Positions 15,281 through 28,001 of a stretch of DNA of 32,094 nucleotides are shown one piece after another. Source of the DNA: Chrysochromulina tobinii. Taxonomy: Eukaryota. The stretch covers positions 1 through 32,094 of the forward strand of contig JWZX01001440.1 of NCBI GenBank assembly GCA_001275005.1, written 5' to 3'. The notes under the pieces were generated by a model. That model saw nothing but the letters and a program-made list of their open reading frames with translations, did no database searches and was not told the origin of the DNA. Numbering within the stretch: position 1 is the stretch's first letter; every line of letters begins with the position of its first letter. Position numbers and translations under genes: made by a program.

Positions 15281-15436
15281 TCGGTCATCATCTTTCAAGT
15301 TTCAACTTACATACTTACTTGAGCGCGGGGGGACCGCGACGAAACTGACTGATTTGCTGCATCAACTTACGATCAGGATCCGGCGGCAAGAGCAAGACGC
15401 TCACCCACAAGGTGTGGGCGCTCGGCCTCACGGTAC

Positions 15437-17335
15437 ATGTTGGGGACCGCCGTGCTACACGATGGCCTCGCGATGCGTCCTCCCATGGGATTCAATTCTT
15501 ACATAGGGCCATCCGGTGGTTTCGTCTGCGTCCCATCCTACGCCACGCCTCTTGCAAAGCCGCCACCCATGGCGCTGAACGATCAAGGATCCTCTGAACT
15601 AAATCATCTCTGCCCTGAAGGCCAGCTGCCTCATCCCACAGCTTACAAGGCGCTCAAGAACCCACCCCCCGGCTGGTCGACCGTCGGCGCGGCTCAAAAC
15701 ACAACCGACACTGCTCCTCCGCACTACTTGTACAATTCGGCCTTCCAAAATTTTGGGAACGGCGTCTCCAGCGTGAACGGCTCCGTCGTCGTCTCTCAGC
15801 CGATCCTCGAGCCCGACGGCTCTTTGAGCGGCGCGCACTCCCTTGCCGAGATTGCCGTGCAGTCCGCCGATCTGCTTCAAATCGTCGAGGTTGGATGGAT
15901 TGTGGGCTATCAAGGTCAGTATCTCGGGCCAAGCCCGACGCTCTTCGTGTTCCACTGGGTCGACGGCGTGGAAACCTGTTACAACGGCTGCGGCTGGGTG
16001 CAAGTCTCCACGACCAGAGTGCCAGGCATGACTCTGGATCCCTCCTCCGCACCTCGCGAGCTCGGCATTCGGTACTTCGAGGGCAATTGGTGGGTCCTCT
16101 TCGACGGCGAGTACATCGGGTACTTCCCTGGCTCACTCTGGGCCGGGGTGCAGCCCAAGTTTGACAGTGCGCATGTGGCCCAGTGGTTTGGGGAGGTGGT
16201 GTCAGAGAAATTGATCAAACCGACGACGCAGATGGGTAACGGCATATTCGGCGACCAGGCAGGTGCATGCCATTGGAGCCACTTGTCTTACTCGCAAGGA
16301 GACAAAACCCATTGGGCAAACCCACAATATGATGTGACCGACCCGACGCTCTATAACATCGGTCATAAAGGCGTCGATCACGGGTATGCATTCGGTGGCC
16401 CGGGCTATGTGCCGCCAGCGCCGCCAGCGCCGCCAGCGCCGCCAGCATCGCCTCCGTCTCCGCCAGCGCCACCAGCGTCGCCTCCGCCTCCGGGCCACGG
16501 GTGCCACGCGGCGTACGCACCAATCGAGCCTGCAGGGATCGCGCTCGGCTGGTTTTTGACGATTGCCACGCTGCTTGCGCCATCGCCGCAATACGTGGCT
16601 CTGTGCCGAAGCCGCAGCTCACATGGCATCTCGCTGCTCACGCCATTGCTCAACCTGGTATACGGCGTGCTCAACTTATGCAGTGCCATCCTCACCAAGT
16701 GGCCCTCCATTCAGCGCTGTGGCGATTCGTCGTTAGCGGGTGCATTTGAAGCTGATGGCTGCGTGGATCAGCTCCTCGACGTGTGGCAAGTCGCGATCAG
16801 CGCGCTCGGCCTCTCTGTCATCTTGGCCTTGGTGGTGCTCTTCCCGCCGCACAACTTTGCCAAGGAGCGTGCGCTCGTTGTCGTCACGCTTTGTTGCCTC
16901 GCCCTGACCATATTTGCCGCGTGCTACCTCAGCGCTCTCAGCCCGTGCTCGGAGGCGAGCCACACGCTGTCGCAGACCTTTGCAGTGCTCTCCGCCCTGA
17001 TCGTCGTCGTGGCCTTCGCGCCGCAGCTGTACGAGACATGGAGGACAAGGGGAGCTGGCTCCCTCTCGAGCCTCTACTACCTTATCCAATCGATAGGCAC
17101 CGCTCTCGTGGTGGTCCTGCAGCTTGTCGCGCTGCGCGACTCGATCCTCGTGTGGGGTCCGAACTCAATCTCAATGGCCGTGCAGGGCGGCATCTTCTCG
17201 ATGCTCTGCTACTACCGCCGCTGTGCGGGCCGTCGCAGCGGAGGTACCACGGGCGCCGATCCGCTGCTCGTCGTGCAGGAGTCCGCGCAGGCCGCCGCCG
17301 CGGTAAACGTTGGGCGATGGGCGCCGCTGACGTGA
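15437..17335 (+). CDS. Fusion protein: neprosin-family glutamic peptidase + Pro-rich linker + PQ-loop 7TM transporter (632 aa), with a GH27-like N-terminal fragment
   Basis: One stop-free ORF. Neprosin: CPEGQLP (pro-peptide end), HSLAEIAV, QIVEVGW, PTLFVFHW, CYNGCGWVQVS, GNWWV..EYIGYFPGSLW, AQWFGEV, TQMGNG, FGGPG. PQ-loop: LAPSPQY..RSRSSHGISL and AFAPQLYETWRTRGAGSLS, with about 7 hydrophobic segments. Confidence 0.88.
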   Translation: MLGTAVLHDGLAMRPPMGFNSYIGPSGGFVCVPSYATPLAKPPPMALNDQGSSELNHLCPEGQLPHPTAYKALKNPPPGWSTVGAAQNTTDTAPPHYLYNSAFQNFGNGVSSVNGSVVVSQPILEPDGSLSGAHSLAEIAVQSADLLQIVEVGWIVGYQGQYLGPSPTLFVFHWVDGVETCYNGCGWVQVSTTRVPGMTLDPSSAPRELGIRYFEGNWWVLFDGEYIGYFPGSLWAGVQPKFDSAHVAQWFGEVVSEKLIKPTTQMGNGIFGDQAGACHWSHLSYSQGDKTHWANPQYDVTDPTLYNIGHKGVDHGYAFGGPGYVPPAPPAPPAPPASPPSPPAPPASPPPPGHGCHAAYAPIEPAGIALGWFLTIATLLAPSPQYVALCRSRSSHGISLLTPLLNLVYGVLNLCSAILTKWPSIQRCGDSSLAGAFEADGCVDQLLDVWQVAISALGLSVILALVVLFPPHNFAKERALVVVTLCCLALTIFAACYLSALSPCSEASHTLSQTFAVLSALIVVVAFAPQLYETWRTRGAGSLSSLYYLIQSIGTALVVVLQLVALRDSILVWGPNSISMAVQGGIFSMLCYYRRCAGRRSGGTTGADPLLVVQESAQAAAAVNVGRWAPLT

Positions 17336-21868: not shown

Positions 21869-22668
21869 CGTTGGTAGTACGGTAGCACGAATGAGTCGCA
21901 ATGTAGGAGTCAGTTATAGAAGAGTTGTTTGAGAGTCGCCTACCCTACGGCTGAGCGACCGGAGAACGAGCCCGGTCTGTAAGTAAAAGTAGTAATTCAC
22001 GCCTCCAGGCAGCGTACACGTCTCACGGCGAGCCCGGACCGGCCAATTGGGGCCGGCGCGGGCGCCACCGGACGCGAAAAGCGCGATGGTCCGAGCTCCG
22101 ACACGGTTCATATCATAACCATGTTCAACTTTTCACACGTCATATGTGAGTCTGAGGCAGCCATCAGGTGGTGGAATAAGAGAGTACGTCTACGTTTCTA
22201 GAAGTGCAGCGCATGTTCTGCGCTTCGTTGGGGGTACGCTTGGCGTGTGTGCGAGCATCGCGGACGAGGCAGGGGCGTCGCGTGCCAAAACGTGGCAGGA
22301 ATTGGCCAAGGACCCCTCGAGGTGACCTGCCTTTGGGGGTTGTGCGCGCCGTTCACAGCTGCCGTTCACACCCCGAAGCTTTCTTTCCTTATCGAGCGCG
22401 CGATGGCTGAGGAGAACCTTGTTTGCCAGTGCTGAGCAGTCGGCTTCGCCAGCGAGTTGGCTCATCGCGCGCTCCGTCGCTCTTCGTGCTAAACGTGCGT
22501 CGGTGCGATCGCTGCACGGTCACACCGCACCGCCTTCGCACACGGAATACATCGAGTCCGCTCCCTGGTAGGTGCTTTCTTCCACGGAGCCCGCGGGGCA
22601 CTTCTGCATCTCAGTGCTGCCGAATACACACGCTGCCTAAGCCTCTCTTCTTCTCTCTTGTTCGCAGG

Positions 22669-24129
22669 ATGATCGCGATGCTCATCAACTGTGTAGCGGA
22701 GAAGACCAACGCCCACAGCGATAAAATCAACTCGGTCACCTTTTCGCCCGATGGCACGAAGATCGTGTCGGGATCGGCTGACGGGACGATCAAAGTCTGG
22801 GATTCGGGTGCGCTGCGCCCTCAAATCGCCCTTTCTTGGCCAAAACTGACGCCTGTGTTGGCTTGCCTGGCAGACAAGCTCGAGTTGCTGAGCGAGAAGA
22901 CGAACGCCCACAGCGACTACATCACGTCAGTCGCGTTTTCCCCAGACGGGGCCAAGATTGCGTCGGGATCGTACGACAGGACGATCATAGTCTGGGAATC
23001 GGGTGCGCCGGAGCCCTCAAAATCGCCCCTCCTTGGCCAAAACTGACGCCTGCTGGCTTGTCTGGCAGACAAGCTGGAGCTGCTGAGCGAGAAGACGGTC
23101 GCCCACAGCGACTGCATCAACTCGGTGACGTTTTCACCGGACGGAACCAAGATCGTCTCGGGATCGCACGACGGGACGATCAAAGTCTGGGATTCGGGTG
23201 CGCCGCGAGCTCAAAATCGCCCCTCCTTGGCCAAAACTGACGCCTGCTGACTTGTCTGGCAGGCAAACTGGAGCTGCTGAGCGAGAAGACGAACGCCCAC
23301 CGCGGTGCCTTAAAGGCAGTCGCGTGGGTCGCGTTTTCCCCGGACGGGACCAAGATCGTGTCTGCATCGGACGACAAGACTATCAAAGTCTGGGATTCGG
23401 GTGTGCCGAAGCCCTTAAAATCGCCTCTCCTTGGCCATAAACTAACGCCTGTTGGCTTGTCTGACAGACAAACTGGAGCTGTTGAGCGAGAAGACGAACG
23501 CCCACAGCGACTGCATCATGGTGGCGTTTTCCCCGGACGGGACCAAGATCGTGTCAGGATCGTGGGACAAGACGATCAAAGTCTGGGAATCTGGTGCGCC
23601 GAAGCCCTCAAAATTGCCCCTCCTTGGCCAAAACTAACGCCTGTTGGCTTGTCTGGCAGGCAAGCTGGAGCTGCTGAGCGTGAAGATGAACGCACACAGC
23701 CAAGAAATCACGTCGGTGGCGTTTTCCCCGGACGGGACCAAGATTGTGTCCGGATCGGACGACCAGACGATCAAAATCTGGGATTCGGGTGCGCCGGAGC
23801 CCTCAAAATCGCCCCTCCTTGGCCAAATCTGACGCTAGCTGGCTTGTCTGGCAGGCGCATTGGAGCTGTTGAGCGAGAAGACGGTCGCCCACAGCGACTG
23901 GGTCATGTCGGTCGCGTTTTCCCCGGACGGGGCCAAGATTGTGTCCGGATCGTACGACGGGACGATTAAAGTCTGGGATATGGTCAAGTGGTCTCGCAAA
24001 GATCATTTGATGTTCAATGATACCACCCAGCGATTCGTCTTGCTGCTGCTGTGGCTGAACAAATACAGTATGAAGTTTCCGGATGATGTGCTTGATCTAC
24101 TCATCGAAACTTGCTTGCAAAGCAGTTGA
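22669..24129 (+). CDS. WD40 protein, 7 near-identical repeats at one per exon, with C-terminal F-box-like helical tail (~354 aa)
   Basis: Exons 22669-22807, 22874-23002, 23069-23197, 23263-23400, 23468-23593, 23660-23788, 23855-24129 (1065 nt, open frame); six phase-1 GT-AG introns of 65-67 nt. Repeat consensus [42 protein letters not shown]. An acceptor just before the ATG suggests an upstream exon. Confidence 0.92.
22697..23979 (+). repeat. Tandem array of ~195-bp exon+intron units
   Basis: Intron consensus gtgcgccg.agccctcaaaatcgcccctccttggccaaaactgacgcctg.tggcttgtctggcag occurs six times. Confidence 0.95.
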
Positions 24130-24544
24130 GAGGTGTGGGGTGACGGCGGCTGGATGTGTCGCATCCGATCTGATCCACACGGGTCATGGCGCGCGCCGTT
24201 CTAGAGAGTCCTCGAGCAGTCGAATGATTCAGATTGACACGCATATGTTGACACAGGAACTTGTAAACTGCCTGTTAATTACTGGTACCACGTGCCCCAG
24301 GTATGGGGTACCACGCGAAAAATGCAATGCCAAATCCTGTCGTGTTAACGTTCACACACACGTTCACACCTCTTGCGGGGAGAAAAAACCGAGCTGAACT
24401 GTGTGTGGAGACCGCGCGCGTAAAACATGGGCCGCGTGCTCTTGAAGGAGCTCCGCAACGCGGCGCCGCGCGCGCCTTCCGACCGCCTTTCGACCGACAA
24501 CGTGCGACCACTGGTCCTCTGCAGGCTCTCACAGATAAATCCGA

Positions 24545-27500
24545 ATGAGGCGGCGGAAAATCAAAATTGGGTGGCCACGGCACGTTCAGATGAGTTTGGT
24601 GCACGAACGGAGGGCGGAGGCGAGGGTTGGTGCGCAGCTGATGCAGGCGCTGCAGGCGCAGGTGGTACAACTGACGAACCGTGTTTCTACCCTAGACGAA
24701 GCTCTCCTTGCCGAGCGTCGGGAAAACGAACAGCTGTCTCAAGAACGAGCAGAACGGCTTCGGGCGCAGGCGGAGGCGTCTGAGAACGCGTTGCGCGACC
24801 AGTTCCGAGCACTGTCGGCTCGGGTAGAAGCGCAAGTGGATCAAGGCGAGAAATCTCTTCGAGACTATCCTTCTCAGTTACGTGCCCAGGCGGACGCGTC
24901 GGAGGGGGTGCTCCGGCAGGAGATTGCGCGCCTGCGCTCGGAGGCAGCCGTTTCGCTCTCCGCCGCCAGCCCAAACTCGAGTCGTCCCCCGACTGTTGCG
25001 GAGCTGGGCCTCCGAGTGGAAGCGCTCAAGCAGTTGAAGGAGAGTGGCGTTCCAGCCTTCCCAGCTAAGGAACTTGGGTATACGCTCATGGAGCTACGGC
25101 TTGCAGGCTACTCGTTTGCGGAAGTGAGGCTCATACCCGGGTATACGCTCGCCGAGATCAAGGCCGTTGGGTACGTCGAGGGCCTCAAGGCGGCCGGGAT
25201 TAAGTGTGACGACGCCAAGGCGGCCGGCTACACGCTCGCCGAGATGAGAGCGGGTGGCTTCACGTGCGCCGATGCCAAGACGGCCGGCTACACGCTCGCC
25301 GAGATGAGAGCGGGTGGCTTCACGTGCGCCGACGCCAAGGCGGCCGGGTTCGTCGAGGGCCTCAAGGCGGCGGGCTTCACGTGCGTGGAGGCCAAGGCGG
25401 TCGGCTACACGCTTGCGGAGATGAGAGCGGATGGCTTCACGTGCGCTCAGGCCAAGATGGCCAGCTACACGCTCACAGAGATGAGGGCAGACGCATACAC
25501 GTGCCTCGAGGCGAAGACGGCCGGCTACACGCTTGAGGAGATGAGAGCGGGTGGCTACAACTGCGCCGAGGTCAAGGCGGCTGGCTACACATGTGTCGAA
25601 GCCAAGGCGGCGGGCTACACGCTCAAGGAAATGAGGGGCGCTGCGCCGGCCGCCGGGCCTGCTACCAGTGGCTTTTCATTCGGTGCGCCACCTGCATCCG
25701 CTGCGCCCGCTGTGCCCGCTGCGCCGGCGACGGGGGGCTTTTCGTTCACTGCGGTCGGCAACCCGCCTAGCACTCCGGTCACCGCGCCTGCTACCAGTGG
25801 GTTTTCATTCGGTGCGCCCGCTGCGCCCGCTGCGCCGGCTGCGCCGGCGACGGGTGGCTTTACGTTTACTGCGCTCGGCAACACGCCTTGCACGACGACC
25901 GCCGCGCCTGCTACAAGTGGCTTTTCATTTGCTGCGCCAGCAACAGTTGGCAAAGGACGAGGACGAGGACGAGGCACCAGCACGCCGGCCTCCGCGCCTG
26001 CTACAAGTGGGTTTTCATTCGGTGCGCCCGCTGTGCCAGCGACGGGTGGCTTATCATTTGCTGTAGTCGGCAGCCCGCCTGGCGACCAAGCAGGGCCTCG
26101 CCCGTCTTTCAAGGCAAAGCGGCCCGCAAAACCAGCCTTTGGCAGCCCCGCCGCCGGCTCTGGTTCACCGCCGGCACCAACCACTGGAACTCTGGCGGCG
26201 GCAGTCCCTTTGTCAAACGCCGCCCTGGAAAAGCTACACACGGCGGTGAAGGAGAACCAGTTGGCCGATGTGAAAACTCTGCTCGCCTCGGGCTCAAACC
26301 TAGTCAACATGGCTGATGACAACGGGATGACGGCACTCATCTGGGCTGCATCCAAGGGCCATGGTGAGATGGTCGGAGTCCTCCTCGAATTCGGCGCGGA
26401 CAAGAAAGCGGTGACGAAAAAGGGCAATAACGCACTGCAGGCAGCCAAAATGGGTCAAGAACAGGCTCCCGGCGACGCGCGTTTCGACCATGCTATCCGA
26501 ATTCTAGAAGCCCCGCCCGGACTCAAGCTCGAAGGTGGCTCGCTGCCAGGAAATGCGGCCAAATACGGTGGCACCTACAAGCTTGATCCGAGGAAGCTTG
26601 TAAACGGCCGGCCCGCGTATCAGCACACGAGCGATGCAACTTGCTGGATTGCGTTCGCTGGAGACCGCTGGATGGGGCTGCCTGAGTCGCTACTTGGTGA
26701 GAAGAAGGGCTTCCTGGACCTAACAGACTCAGCTGCTGCTTCGCCCGACGTGAGTGCCAAGACATGGAAGGTGAGCGGCAGAGCGGGCTCTGGTTGGGTT
26801 GAGGCGCCGCAGCTCAAGTGCACTGCTTGGACGCCGCCGCCGCCGCCACTCGCCGCCGAGCCCGTCGGTGCAATGGCTGGTAGTTCGGCGGGCTTTTACA
26901 CATGCGCCGAGGCCAAGACGGCAGGCTTCACGCTTACTGAGATGAGAACGAGCGGGTACACATGCGCCGACGCCAAGGCGGCCGGGTTCGTCGAGGGCCT
27001 CAAGGCGGCGGGGTTCACTTGCCTCGAGGTGAAGACGGTCGGCTACACGCTCGCGGAAATGAGAGTGGGTGGCTTCACATGCGCCGAGGTCAAGGCGGCC
27101 GGGTACGTCACGGGCCTCAAGGAGGCCGGCTACACGTGCCTCGAGGTGAAGGCGGCCGGCGGTGGCTTCACGTGCGCCGACGCCAAGGCGGCCGGGTTCG
27201 TCGAGGGCCTCAAGGCGGCGGGGTTCACTTGCCTCGAGGTGAAGACGGTCGGCTACACGCTCGCGGAGATGAGAGTGGGTGGCTTCACATGCGCCGAGGT
27301 CAAGGCGGCCGGGTACGTCACGGGCCTCAAGGAGGCGAGCTACACGTGCCTCGAGGCGAAGGCGGCCGGCTACACGCTCGCAGGGATGAGAGCAGGCGGA
27401 TACAATAGCACCGAGGTCAAGGCGGCCGGCTACACACTTGCGGAGATGAGAGTGGGAGGGTACACCGAGGGCCTCAAGGCGCTCGGCTACACGTGCGCCG

Positions 27501-28001
27501 AGGCGAAGGCGGCCGGGTACGTCATGGGCCTCAAGGAGGCGGGCTACACATGCGCGGAGGCCAAGGCAGGCAATTACACGTGCGCTCAGGTCAAGATGGC
27601 AGGGTATACGCTCGCAGAGATGAGAGCAGCCGGCTTCACGTGCGCCGAGGCGAAGGCGGCCGGGTTCAATCCCAAGGAGTCCATGCAGGCTGGCTTCACC
27701 TACCAAGAGGGGCTTGCGGTGGGTTATCCTTCCCATATCGATGGCCATCCTACCAATGTTACGTCGTGGAACTTCGGTATGCAACCACCGCGACTCGAAT
27801 CGACGATCTCCCTCCCCGCGCTCCCACCGCCTCCGCGCGCGCGCCCCTCAGTCCAGCGTCCAATGAGGCGGGCCGCGGCGCTGCGTGCGGCCCGCGCCCT
27901 GCGTGCGGCTTGCTGGCGTAGTGACCCTTGCTGCAGACTCACGCCCGCTCGTGTGCGCGCATGGCGCAGGGGTTTATGACTGGAATGGGAACGATTTGTG
28001 A
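24545..28001 (+). CDS. Mosaic repeat protein (~1090 aa): coiled coil, Cys-containing decapeptide repeats, GFSFG repeats, ankyrin repeats, small beta-rich domain, second decapeptide array
   Basis: ORF 24545-27979. AG(Y/F)TxxExKA decapeptides at ~25070-25635 and ~26890-27725; ATSGFSFGAP repeats ~25660-26060; ankyrin DNGMTALIWAASKGHGEMVGVLLEFGAD. A probable last intron 27777-27969 (GTATGC...CTCAC...CGCAG) gives the C-terminus NFGVYDWNGNDL* ending at 28001. Start uncertain (24545, 24590 or 24641). Confidence 0.85.

What the first reader, a model, noticed from the sequence alone, without database searches (positions are those of the whole stretch)
22669..23979. WD40 gene built from interchangeable exon+intron cassettes with hypervariable surface positions
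Seen: seven blades, each its own exon, separated by six near-identical phase-1 introns. The framework is almost invariant while two patches differ in each blade: after AH ([39 protein letters not shown]) and in SxDx (ADG, YDR, HDG, DDK, WDK, DDQ, YDG). Known: comparable top-face positions are diversified in Podospora HNWD (het-d/het-e) non-self receptors, and one-repeat-per-exon shuffling is described for Ectocarpus LRR-ROCO genes. Inference: a recombining or alternatively spliced variable binding surface, possibly for immunity.
Basis: partly seen in the sequence, partly recalled or inferred. Interest (0 to 1): 0.75.

Follow-up and report, generated by a model that had tools for sequence, protein, structure and literature searches.

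The report
Shuffled WD40 binder repertoire in alga
This spliced gene of a single-celled alga builds a ring-shaped protein from seven near-identical exon-plus-intron units that also occur in about twenty sister genes and in immune-receptor-type (NACHT) genes, and five predicted surface positions vary far more than chance, so it is likely one member of a reshuffled library for recognising foreign proteins.

Summary
Six phase-1 GT-AG introns of 65-67 nt separate seven WD40 repeats. Exact RNA contigs splice two of the six, plus an unnoticed 5' intron. The gene gives 354 aa with no N-terminal domain and a conserved 49-aa tail; the closest named relative is from Chrysochromulina tobinii. It is not single-copy: at least 19 such genes and about 8 NACHT-WD40 genes use the same unit. 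Repeats are as alike between genes as within one, and a 192-nt exact tract sits in four loci of both types. Codons 14/15/17/33/35 give omega 2.3-3.2 against 0.17 for the framework; four match the spacing of the Podospora HNWD selected sites. Probable alleles differ in repeat content and number. Two corrections: linkage is gone within 15-30 nt, so the intron looks carried along rather than serving as a swap boundary, and no exon skipping was seen. Ligand and tail function are untested. Verdict: HNWD-like diversification with a brown-algal exon layout in a haptophyte, feeding both NACHT receptors and NACHT-less genes; a new variant of a known kind.

The parts
22412..22567 (+). 5' non-coding exon (part covered by RNA; true start unknown)
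   Evidence: Exact RNA contigs in X12, X13, X16; no in-frame ATG in the window; frameshifts or stops in this frame in paralogues
22568..22667 (+). 5' UTR intron, 100 nt, GT..AG
   Evidence: Joint skipping 100 nt in X16; also an unspliced 265-nt contig in X13
22668..22807 (+). Coding exon 1: ATG at 22669, short N-terminus plus WD40 repeat 1
   Evidence: Pfam PF00400
22808..22873 (+). Repeat intron 1 (66 nt, phase 1)
   Evidence: no own RNA joint listed
22874..23002 (+). Exon 2, WD40 repeat 2; variable codons 14/15/17 at 22915-22926 and 33/35 at 22972-22980
   Evidence: exact RNA contigs
23003..23068 (+). Repeat intron 2 (66 nt)
   Evidence: Spliced in X16 (107+128 nt exact) and X11
23069..23197 (+). 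Exon 3, WD40 repeat 3
23198..23262 (+). Repeat intron 3 (65 nt)
   Evidence: retention frameshifts
23263..23400 (+). Exon 4, WD40 repeat 4 with a 3-residue in-frame insertion in the first patch
23401..23467 (+). Repeat intron 4 (67 nt)
   Evidence: exon-to-exon loose ends at 23400 and 23467 in RNA at 88% likeness, which may come from paralogues
23468..23593 (+). Exon 5, WD40 repeat 5 with a 1-residue deletion
23594..23659 (+). Repeat intron 5 (66 nt)
   Evidence: retention gives a stop
23660..23788 (+). Exon 6, WD40 repeat 6
23789..23854 (+). Repeat intron 6 (66 nt)
   Evidence: Spliced in X11, shorter side 42 nt
23855..23979 (+). Exon 7, first part: WD40 repeat 7
23980..24129 (+). Conserved 49-aa C-terminal tail (predicted three helices) and TGA stop; RNA continues to at least 24252
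   Evidence: RNA contig 24088-24252

Best explanation
This is a transcribed, spliced 354-aa seven-repeat WD40 gene whose exon-plus-intron repeats belong to one pool shared with at least 18 sister genes and about 8 NACHT-WD40 genes, and it is likely a variable binder of foreign proteins that is reshuffled by recombination and diversified by selection on its predicted top face. Shown: the gene structure, splicing of three introns, the multi-locus family, equal repeat divergence within and between genes, exact tracts shared between loci, and omega above 1 at five codons. Inferred: exchange works by ordinary homologous gene conversion and unequal crossover, with tracts from a few tens of bases up to a whole 195-nt unit, and the intron rides along as part of the repeat. 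Inferred: the five codons form the top-face binding site, by their match to HNWD sites, and selection holds most NACHT-less genes at seven repeats, one closed propeller. Inferred and untested: the ligands are virus or parasite proteins. Because this copy has no NACHT or effector domain, its conserved helical tail would hand the captured target to a constant host partner; my best guess is a cullin ubiquitin-ligase adaptor (about 0.35 for this step alone).
For: Splicing and expression. Coding constraint: 193 of 194 unique internal exons in frame and none of those with a stop, while 250 unique introns range over 59-83 nt in all three frames. Family: 129 of 129 loci with the intron motif lie in WD40 exon/intron arrays; 19 distinct last exons with tail and 9 NACHT-type last exons in the record set that shares identical arrays; NPHP3_N/NACHT/APAF1_C upstream of the same units. 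One pool: mean exon differences 19.8 within a locus, 20.1 between NACHT-less loci, 20.1 between types (109 exons, 29 loci). Exchange: 71 of 83 exact tracts of 60 nt or more lie between loci (24 loci); one 192-nt tract is in four loci, each seen in at least two assemblies, one of them a NACHT gene. Selection: pN 0.57 at the five codons against framework pS 0.27, framework pN 0.054 and intron diversity 0.13 (175 exons); diversity 0.60 at their first two positions against 0.23 at 17 fourfold sites, p=5e-5; omega 3.17 (p=2e-9), or 2.30 on a tree from those codons alone (p=9e-6), against 0.167 for the other 37 codons; 154 residue combinations in 175 exons. Same 2-16-2 spacing as HNWD codons 7/9/25/27 (PMC1805685). 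Probable alleles with mostly 93-100% flanks or tail but about 81-94% arrays, and one clean loss of a unit. 14 of 20 complete arrays have seven repeats. Tail pN/pS 0.34 in 32 sequences.
Against: No ligand, infection data or phenotype was available. The tail matches no F-box, SOCS-box or other model in Pfam or NCBIfam and no PDB sequence convincingly; the ligase idea rests on a recalled motif resemblance. Codon-model omega is inflated by recombination, though the tree-free diversity tests agree. All arrays come from short-read assemblies, which can build chimeras in such repeats. Allelism is judged from flank identity only, is weak for L019/L037 (about 400 nt of upstream match), and 4 of the 16 pairs compared had near-identical arrays. 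The window's own three canonical exons have no close twin in the sample (nearest 7-15 differences), and its array is identical in another assembly (L093), so no change within a culture was seen. One paralogue carries a frameshifted exon.
Confidence: 0.7

Rival explanations
1. The NACHT-less genes are mainly a reservoir of repeat donors (or decoys) for the NACHT-WD40 receptors and have no binding job of their own.
For: Shared pool and exact tracts between the two gene types. LRR-only genes were proposed as a reservoir in brown algae (PMC11378527 section 15).
Against: The gene is transcribed and spliced, the tail is under purifying selection, frames are kept, and seven repeats dominate (14 of 20); a mere donor needs none of these.
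Confidence: 0.12
2. [quoted passage not shown]
For: Symmetric phase-1 exons allow any skip in frame. Most of the longest shared tracts are about one unit long and several end near the exon 3' end or donor. An inverted, broken unit cluster lies beside one NACHT gene.
Against: Own RNA joints are in genomic order; a cDNA-like record of a paralogue has three introns removed and no skip. Mean r2 is 0.057 within 15 nt and about 0.01 beyond; the two patches of one exon are nearly unlinked (rho 0.11); 94-100% of site pairs show four gametes. Arrays are identical between assemblies of the same record set. Skipping would break a seven-repeat ring.
Confidence: 0.1
3. The array is a recently amplified repeat and the patches vary through relaxed constraint or local hypermutation, with no selection for new binding.
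For: Some synonymous sites are also very variable (up to 0.66), and loops tolerate change.
Against: Replacement diversity exceeds fourfold-site and intron diversity; omega is above 1; the third position of codon 35 is nearly fixed (0.03) beside very variable first and second positions, and codons 16 and 34 between the variable ones are conserved. Framework adenines are not hypermutable, against a retroelement-type mechanism.
Confidence: 0.05
4. The apparent sharing and shuffling are artefacts of short-read assembly of a repeat family.
For: All loci are short-read contigs; one cDNA-like record shows a jump between two introns at an identical stretch.
Against: Arrays recur unchanged in separate assemblies; equal within- and between-locus divergence does not depend on long tracts; an exact RNA contig links the window's exon 2 to exon 3.
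Confidence: 0.03

Closest known systems
Podospora anserina HNWD/NWD family (het-d, het-e, het-r): NACHT-WD40 receptors with high internal conservation (PMC1805685 passages; PMC2873952 passages; PMC13449251 abstract, passages, section 12)
   Same: Near-identical WD40 repeats evolving in concert across loci; selected codon pairs with the same spacing, each around a conserved residue; repeat gain, loss and exchange; NACHT-WD40 members in the family.
   Different: Here every repeat is its own exon and a 65-67 nt intron is part of the homogenised unit; a fifth codon (14) is also hypervariable; most sampled members, the window gene included, lack NACHT and any N-terminal effector and carry a conserved C-terminal tail; the host is a unicellular haptophyte; no incompatibility or cell-death role is shown.
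[quoted passage not shown]
   Same: One repeat per symmetric exon, diversifying selection, exchange between paralogues, repeat-only genes beside NTPase-bearing ones, algal host.
   Different: WD40 rather than LRR or TPR; phase 1 rather than phase 2 (as given for ROCO); introns short and themselves near-identical; no alternative splicing found here; linkage breaks inside exons.
WD40 substrate receptors of cullin-RING ligases with a terminal box (WD40-SOCS-box or F-box-WD40 proteins; recalled, from no call)
   Same: Seven-repeat propeller plus a short three-helix terminal module; a hydrophobic-Pro-x-x-hydrophobic pattern at the start of the last helix.
   Different: No Pfam F-box or SOCS-box match; fold search inconclusive; known receptors of this kind are not described as recombining repertoires in what I read.

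Membership tests
HNWD/NWD (NACHT-WD40 NLR with high internal conservation) | NACHT domain N-terminal to the WD40 array in the same protein | tested here: not met
   Window gene starts at ATG 22669 after a non-coding exon; no NACHT among 12 window ORFs scanned. Met for the sister genes L004 and L013 (above Pfam cut-offs) and only weakly for L039.
HNWD/NWD (NACHT-WD40 NLR with high internal conservation) | WD40 repeats with high internal conservation (Psim at least 0.7) | tested here: met
   Psim 0.85 over 39 columns for 5 of 7 window repeats; the two with indels were left out; threshold from PMC13449251.
HNWD/NWD (NACHT-WD40 NLR with high internal conservation) | Diversifying selection on two codon pairs, in the d-a loop and the b-c turn | tested here: met
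   Codons 15/17 and 33/35 (plus 14): omega 2.3-3.2, same spacing as 7/9/25/27. Placement on the top face is by analogy; no full propeller model was made.
HNWD/NWD (NACHT-WD40 NLR with high internal conservation) | Concerted evolution and repeat exchange between loci; repeat-number polymorphism | tested here: met
   (short-read assemblies).
HNWD/NWD (NACHT-WD40 NLR with high internal conservation) | N-terminal effector domain and non-self-triggered cell death | not testable with these tools
   No effector domain in the window gene. The region before NACHT in L039 looks HET-like to me (recalled motifs) but had no Pfam, NCBIfam or PDB match.
Brown-algal exon-shuffled ROCO / NB-ARC-TPR receptors | One repeat per symmetric exon | tested here: met
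Brown-algal exon-shuffled ROCO / NB-ARC-TPR receptors | LRR with Roc-COR, or TPR with NB-ARC | tested here: not met
   WD40 repeats; NACHT/NPHP3_N in sister genes.
Brown-algal exon-shuffled ROCO / NB-ARC-TPR receptors | Alternative splicing of repeat exons | tested here: inconclusive
   No solid skip in RNA contigs of 4 runs or in L071; contigs lose rare isoforms.
Cullin-RING ligase substrate receptor (F-box, SOCS-box or VHL-box WD40) | Recognisable box motif | tested here: inconclusive
   No Pfam or NCBIfam box model hit for 21 tails or the window tail; three-helix model, pLDDT 78; best structural Z 5.8, unspecific. Short divergent boxes can escape these searches.
Cullin-RING ligase substrate receptor (F-box, SOCS-box or VHL-box WD40) | Binds Skp1 or Elongin C and a cullin | not testable with these tools
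Introner-type mobile introns | Near-identical introns at unrelated sites in unrelated genes | tested here: not met

The most novel reading that the evidence does not exclude
A unicellular haptophyte keeps one recombining library of WD40 binding modules that feeds two defence platforms at once: NACHT receptors, some with an inserted RelA/SpoT-type nucleotide-synthetase domain, and NACHT-less adaptors whose new tail sends bound viral or parasite proteins to a ubiquitin ligase. That would be an intracellular antibody-like repertoire in a microalga.
Probability: 0.3. Interest if true: 0.85.

Novelty: new variant of a known kind. Interest (0 to 1): 0.65.

Why it matters
How microalgae recognise their viruses is poorly known. 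A recent study of the haptophyte G. huxleyi lists NACHT, TIR and LRR genes as highly transcribed in cells recovered from infection (PMC12489294, passages), and Chrysochromulina parva has cultured lytic viruses (PMC12085832, PMC6459981; search listing only). This family offers named candidate receptors with defined variable residues in a culturable genus, so ligand and resistance tests are direct. It joins two diversification schemes known separately (fungal HNWD repeat exchange, brown-algal one-repeat-per-exon genes) and lets one ask whether introns guide the shuffling; the data here suggest they do not need to. Seven paper searches found no description of this family. The library lacks most subscription papers, and I did not open the supplements of PMC13449251, whose list of internally conserved proteins might include these genes.

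Tried and rejected
Introner-type mobile intron: rejected, all 129 motif loci are WD40 arrays. Viral origin or viral copies: no intron-motif match in viral contigs; the single tail hit L130 covers 19 residues of an unrelated phage-like ORF and is chance. Coding 5' exon: rejected. Retroelement-type adenine mutagenesis: not supported (only 2 third-position adenines to test). Exon skipping: joints from 22804-22806 to 23262-23469 have sides under 30 nt and higher depth than the gene's own contigs, so I read them as junctions of paralogues. A recombination hotspot at the intron: the boundary scan is flat and noisy (rho -0.02 to 0.23). Tail identity: Pfam, NCBIfam, PDB sequences (best E 0.034 to a colicin immunity fragment), structure searches and the Atlas (85; best 0.77) gave nothing specific; this absence does not exclude a box motif. 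A profile search listed only close family members, best 120 of 447 shown; the distant relatives of the tail remain unseen, as no search of the 1.84-billion representative set was obtained. The last-exon search with the WD40 part was swamped by general NACHT/kinase WD40 proteins. The single-sequence model of the three-repeat relative P0139 was poor (pLDDT 60), so no surface mapping was done. Summed contig depth about 40 times the flank at the 5' exon fits many copies but is not a copy number. Run X4 holds both flanks with 1-2 differences and lacks cover of some array parts at 99% likeness; that gap is no evidence. No whole genome was held, so no complete census.

Full report
Observation. The array is real and far beyond chance: period 195, 6.5 copies, score 1612. 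Removing six GT..AG introns of 65-67 nt, all phase 1, gives one open frame of 354 aa from ATG 22669 to TGA 24127-24129. Five of the six introns would stop or shift the frame if kept. Exact RNA contigs splice intron 2 (runs X16, X11) and intron 6 (X11). They also reveal a further intron at 22568-22667 behind a 5' exon (X16). That exon has no in-frame ATG and is frameshifted or stopped in paralogues, so it is untranslated. Unspliced pieces are also present in the RNA runs. The closest named protein is P0131 from Chrysochromulina tobinii, 92% identical over the tail; its first three repeats match those of loci L096/L099. The host is therefore that haptophyte or a near relative.

A family, not a single locus. 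All 129 are alternating WD40 exon/intron arrays, which rules out a mobile intron. Two gene types use the unit. The first is like the window gene. Among the window and 83 loci that I grouped as one record set because they share identical arrays (L093 equals window 22535-23943) there are 19 distinct last exons with tail. 14 of 20 distinct complete arrays have seven repeats, 4 have six, 1 five and 1 three; the count is by motif and may miss divergent repeats. The second type has a long upstream exon with NPHP3_N/NACHT and APAF1_C matches above Pfam cut-offs (L004, L013), then 3-10 units and a different C-terminus. Nine distinct last exons of this type were found, about eight loci. L039 has a further, weaker NACHT context. 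No NACHT gene was among 12 window ORFs scanned.

Coding constraint. Of 194 unique internal exons under 260 nt, 193 keep the frame and none of those has a stop, while 250 unique introns span 59-83 nt in all three frames. Seventeen longer stretches between detected introns were left out of that count; most hide an intron my pattern missed, one is a spliced record, and a few carry inserts. In-frame length changes fall mostly in or next to the two variable loops.

Selection. In 175 of the 176 unique 129-nt exons, codons 14, 15, 17, 33 and 35 hold 12-18 residues each; pN there is 0.57, against framework pS 0.27, framework pN 0.054 and intron diversity 0.13. First and second positions of these codons average 0.60 diversity against 0.23 at 17 fourfold sites (p=5e-5). 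A GY codon model gives omega 3.17 (p=2e-9) on the all-site tree, 2.30 (p=9e-6) on a tree from those codons alone, and 0.167 for the other 37 codons. Recombination inflates such models, so the tree-free numbers carry more weight. There are 154 residue combinations in 175 exons. Paoletti et al. report selected pairs 7/9 (d-a loop) and 25/27 (b-c turn), each around a conserved residue, on top of the HET-E propeller (PMC1805685, passages). Codons 15/17 and 33/35 have the same spacing and the same conserved middle residues; top-face placement here is inferred from that.

Exchange. For 109 exons from 29 representative loci, mean differences are 19.8 within a locus, 20.1 between NACHT-less loci, 20.1 between types and 20.1 between NACHT loci: one pool. 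Among 24 loci, 71 of 83 exact tracts of 60 nt or more join different loci, the longest 232 nt. One 192-nt tract occurs in three NACHT-less loci and one NACHT locus, each seen in at least two assemblies. Yet linkage is short: mean r2 0.057 within 15 nt and about 0.01 beyond, 94-100% of 48 sites' pairs show four gametes, and the two patches of one exon correlate at only 0.11 (173 units). So whole units do move, but so do much smaller pieces, and the intron is not an obligatory boundary. This fits homologous gene conversion and unequal crossover, as shown for het-R and het-E mutants (PMC2873952, passages).

Variation between populations. I compared 16 locus pairs. L001/L021, L009/L041, L023/L036 and L059/L015 share mostly 93-100% flanks or tail but only about 81-94% arrays; L019/L037 does so on a shorter flank. 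In L023/L036 no unit reaches 96%, and L040 is L019 minus one unit with the others at 99-100%. L018 against L027 and L055 differs in part. Four pairs are near-identical (L050/L022, L025/L054, L007/L129, L045/L095). Four are paralogues or share only the tail. Allelism rests on flank identity, and all are short-read contigs.

Splicing variation. The gene's own joints are in genomic order. A cDNA-like record of paralogue L069 has introns 3, 4 and 6 removed, intron 5 kept and no exon skipped. Skip-like joints have sides under 30 nt and probably come from paralogues. Contigs lose rare isoforms, so this is weak evidence of absence.

The tail. It is 82-92% identical among 21 family members, under purifying selection (pN/pS 0.34 in 32 sequences), and predicted as three helices (pLDDT 78). 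It matches no Pfam, NCBIfam or PDB family convincingly, and fold searches are unspecific. A propeller plus a short helical terminal box with a hydrophobic-proline pattern reminds me of cullin-ligase substrate receptors; that is recalled, untested, and about 0.35.

Mechanism and verdict. Most likely each gene presents a variable propeller face to foreign proteins. Recombination across some thirty loci supplies new faces, selection keeps them diverse, and seven repeats keep the ring closed. NACHT members would signal as NLRs; NACHT-less members such as this one would pass the target to a constant partner through the tail. It works like the HNWD family and is laid out like brown-algal ROCO/NB-ARC-TPR genes (PMC3341825, passages; PMC11378527, abstract and section 15), but the window gene is a member of neither. 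A 2026 survey finds internally conserved repeats enriched in ATPase-bearing proteins across life and does not mention haptophytes in its main text (PMC13449251, abstract, passages, section 12; supplements not opened). Searches found no account of this family. Two unchecked notes of this scan describe stand-alone variable WD40 families with a shared tail in other eukaryotes, so the NACHT-less type may recur. New variant of a known kind; interest 0.65.

Noticed in passing
L013:1562-2401 (also L004, L010, L032, L046): The NACHT-WD40 sister genes carry an insert of about 250 aa after the NACHT core that matches the RelA/SpoT-type synthetase region of Tas1 (E 1.6e-5); the Atlas lists diatom-rich clusters at 0.95-0.96 and a cluster with RelA_SpoT on 34% of members at 0.94. 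Possibly an NLR with a built-in nucleotide-signal enzyme.
   Followed up: partly
L039:1095-2054: Domain before the NACHT of a third gene type with motifs that look HET-like to me (recalled); no Pfam, NCBIfam or PDB match.
   Followed up: partly
L020, L025, L054, L032 (within the arrays); P0126: Some repeats carry in-frame non-WD40 inserts of roughly 55-65 aa after the third strand, in place of an intron; possible integrated domains.
   Followed up: no
L011, about 1.8 kb past the main array (also L010, L077, L078): A second, broken cluster with two inverted units head to head with a forward unit and the NACHT-type C-terminus, recalling inverted LRR exons in Ectocarpus.
   Followed up: partly
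L095 (same record as L093): A paralogue lies on the same strand about 28 kb upstream of this gene, some 5 kb before the window start.
   Followed up: partly
window 24539-27979 (+): Neighbouring 1146-aa ORF with two blocks of Pfam Decapeptide repeats (PF25296, E 6e-120), an ankyrin segment and GFSF-type low-complexity repeats; another internally repetitive gene with recent duplications (210-nt period, 97%).
   Followed up: no
window 15353-17335 (+): ORF joining a neprosin domain to PQ-loop repeats, an unusual pairing; may be two genes or a fusion.
   Followed up: no
P0131: The annotated Chrysochromulina tobinii model fuses a three-repeat family member and its tail to a UDP-N-acetylglucosamine diphosphorylase and starts in what is intron sequence here; probably a gene-model error, since loci L096/L099 stop after the tail.
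   Followed up: partly
L069 / L014 / L071: A transcribed paralogue with a one-base frameshift in repeat 6, seen in two DNA records and the cDNA-like record: a likely young pseudogene.
   Followed up: partly
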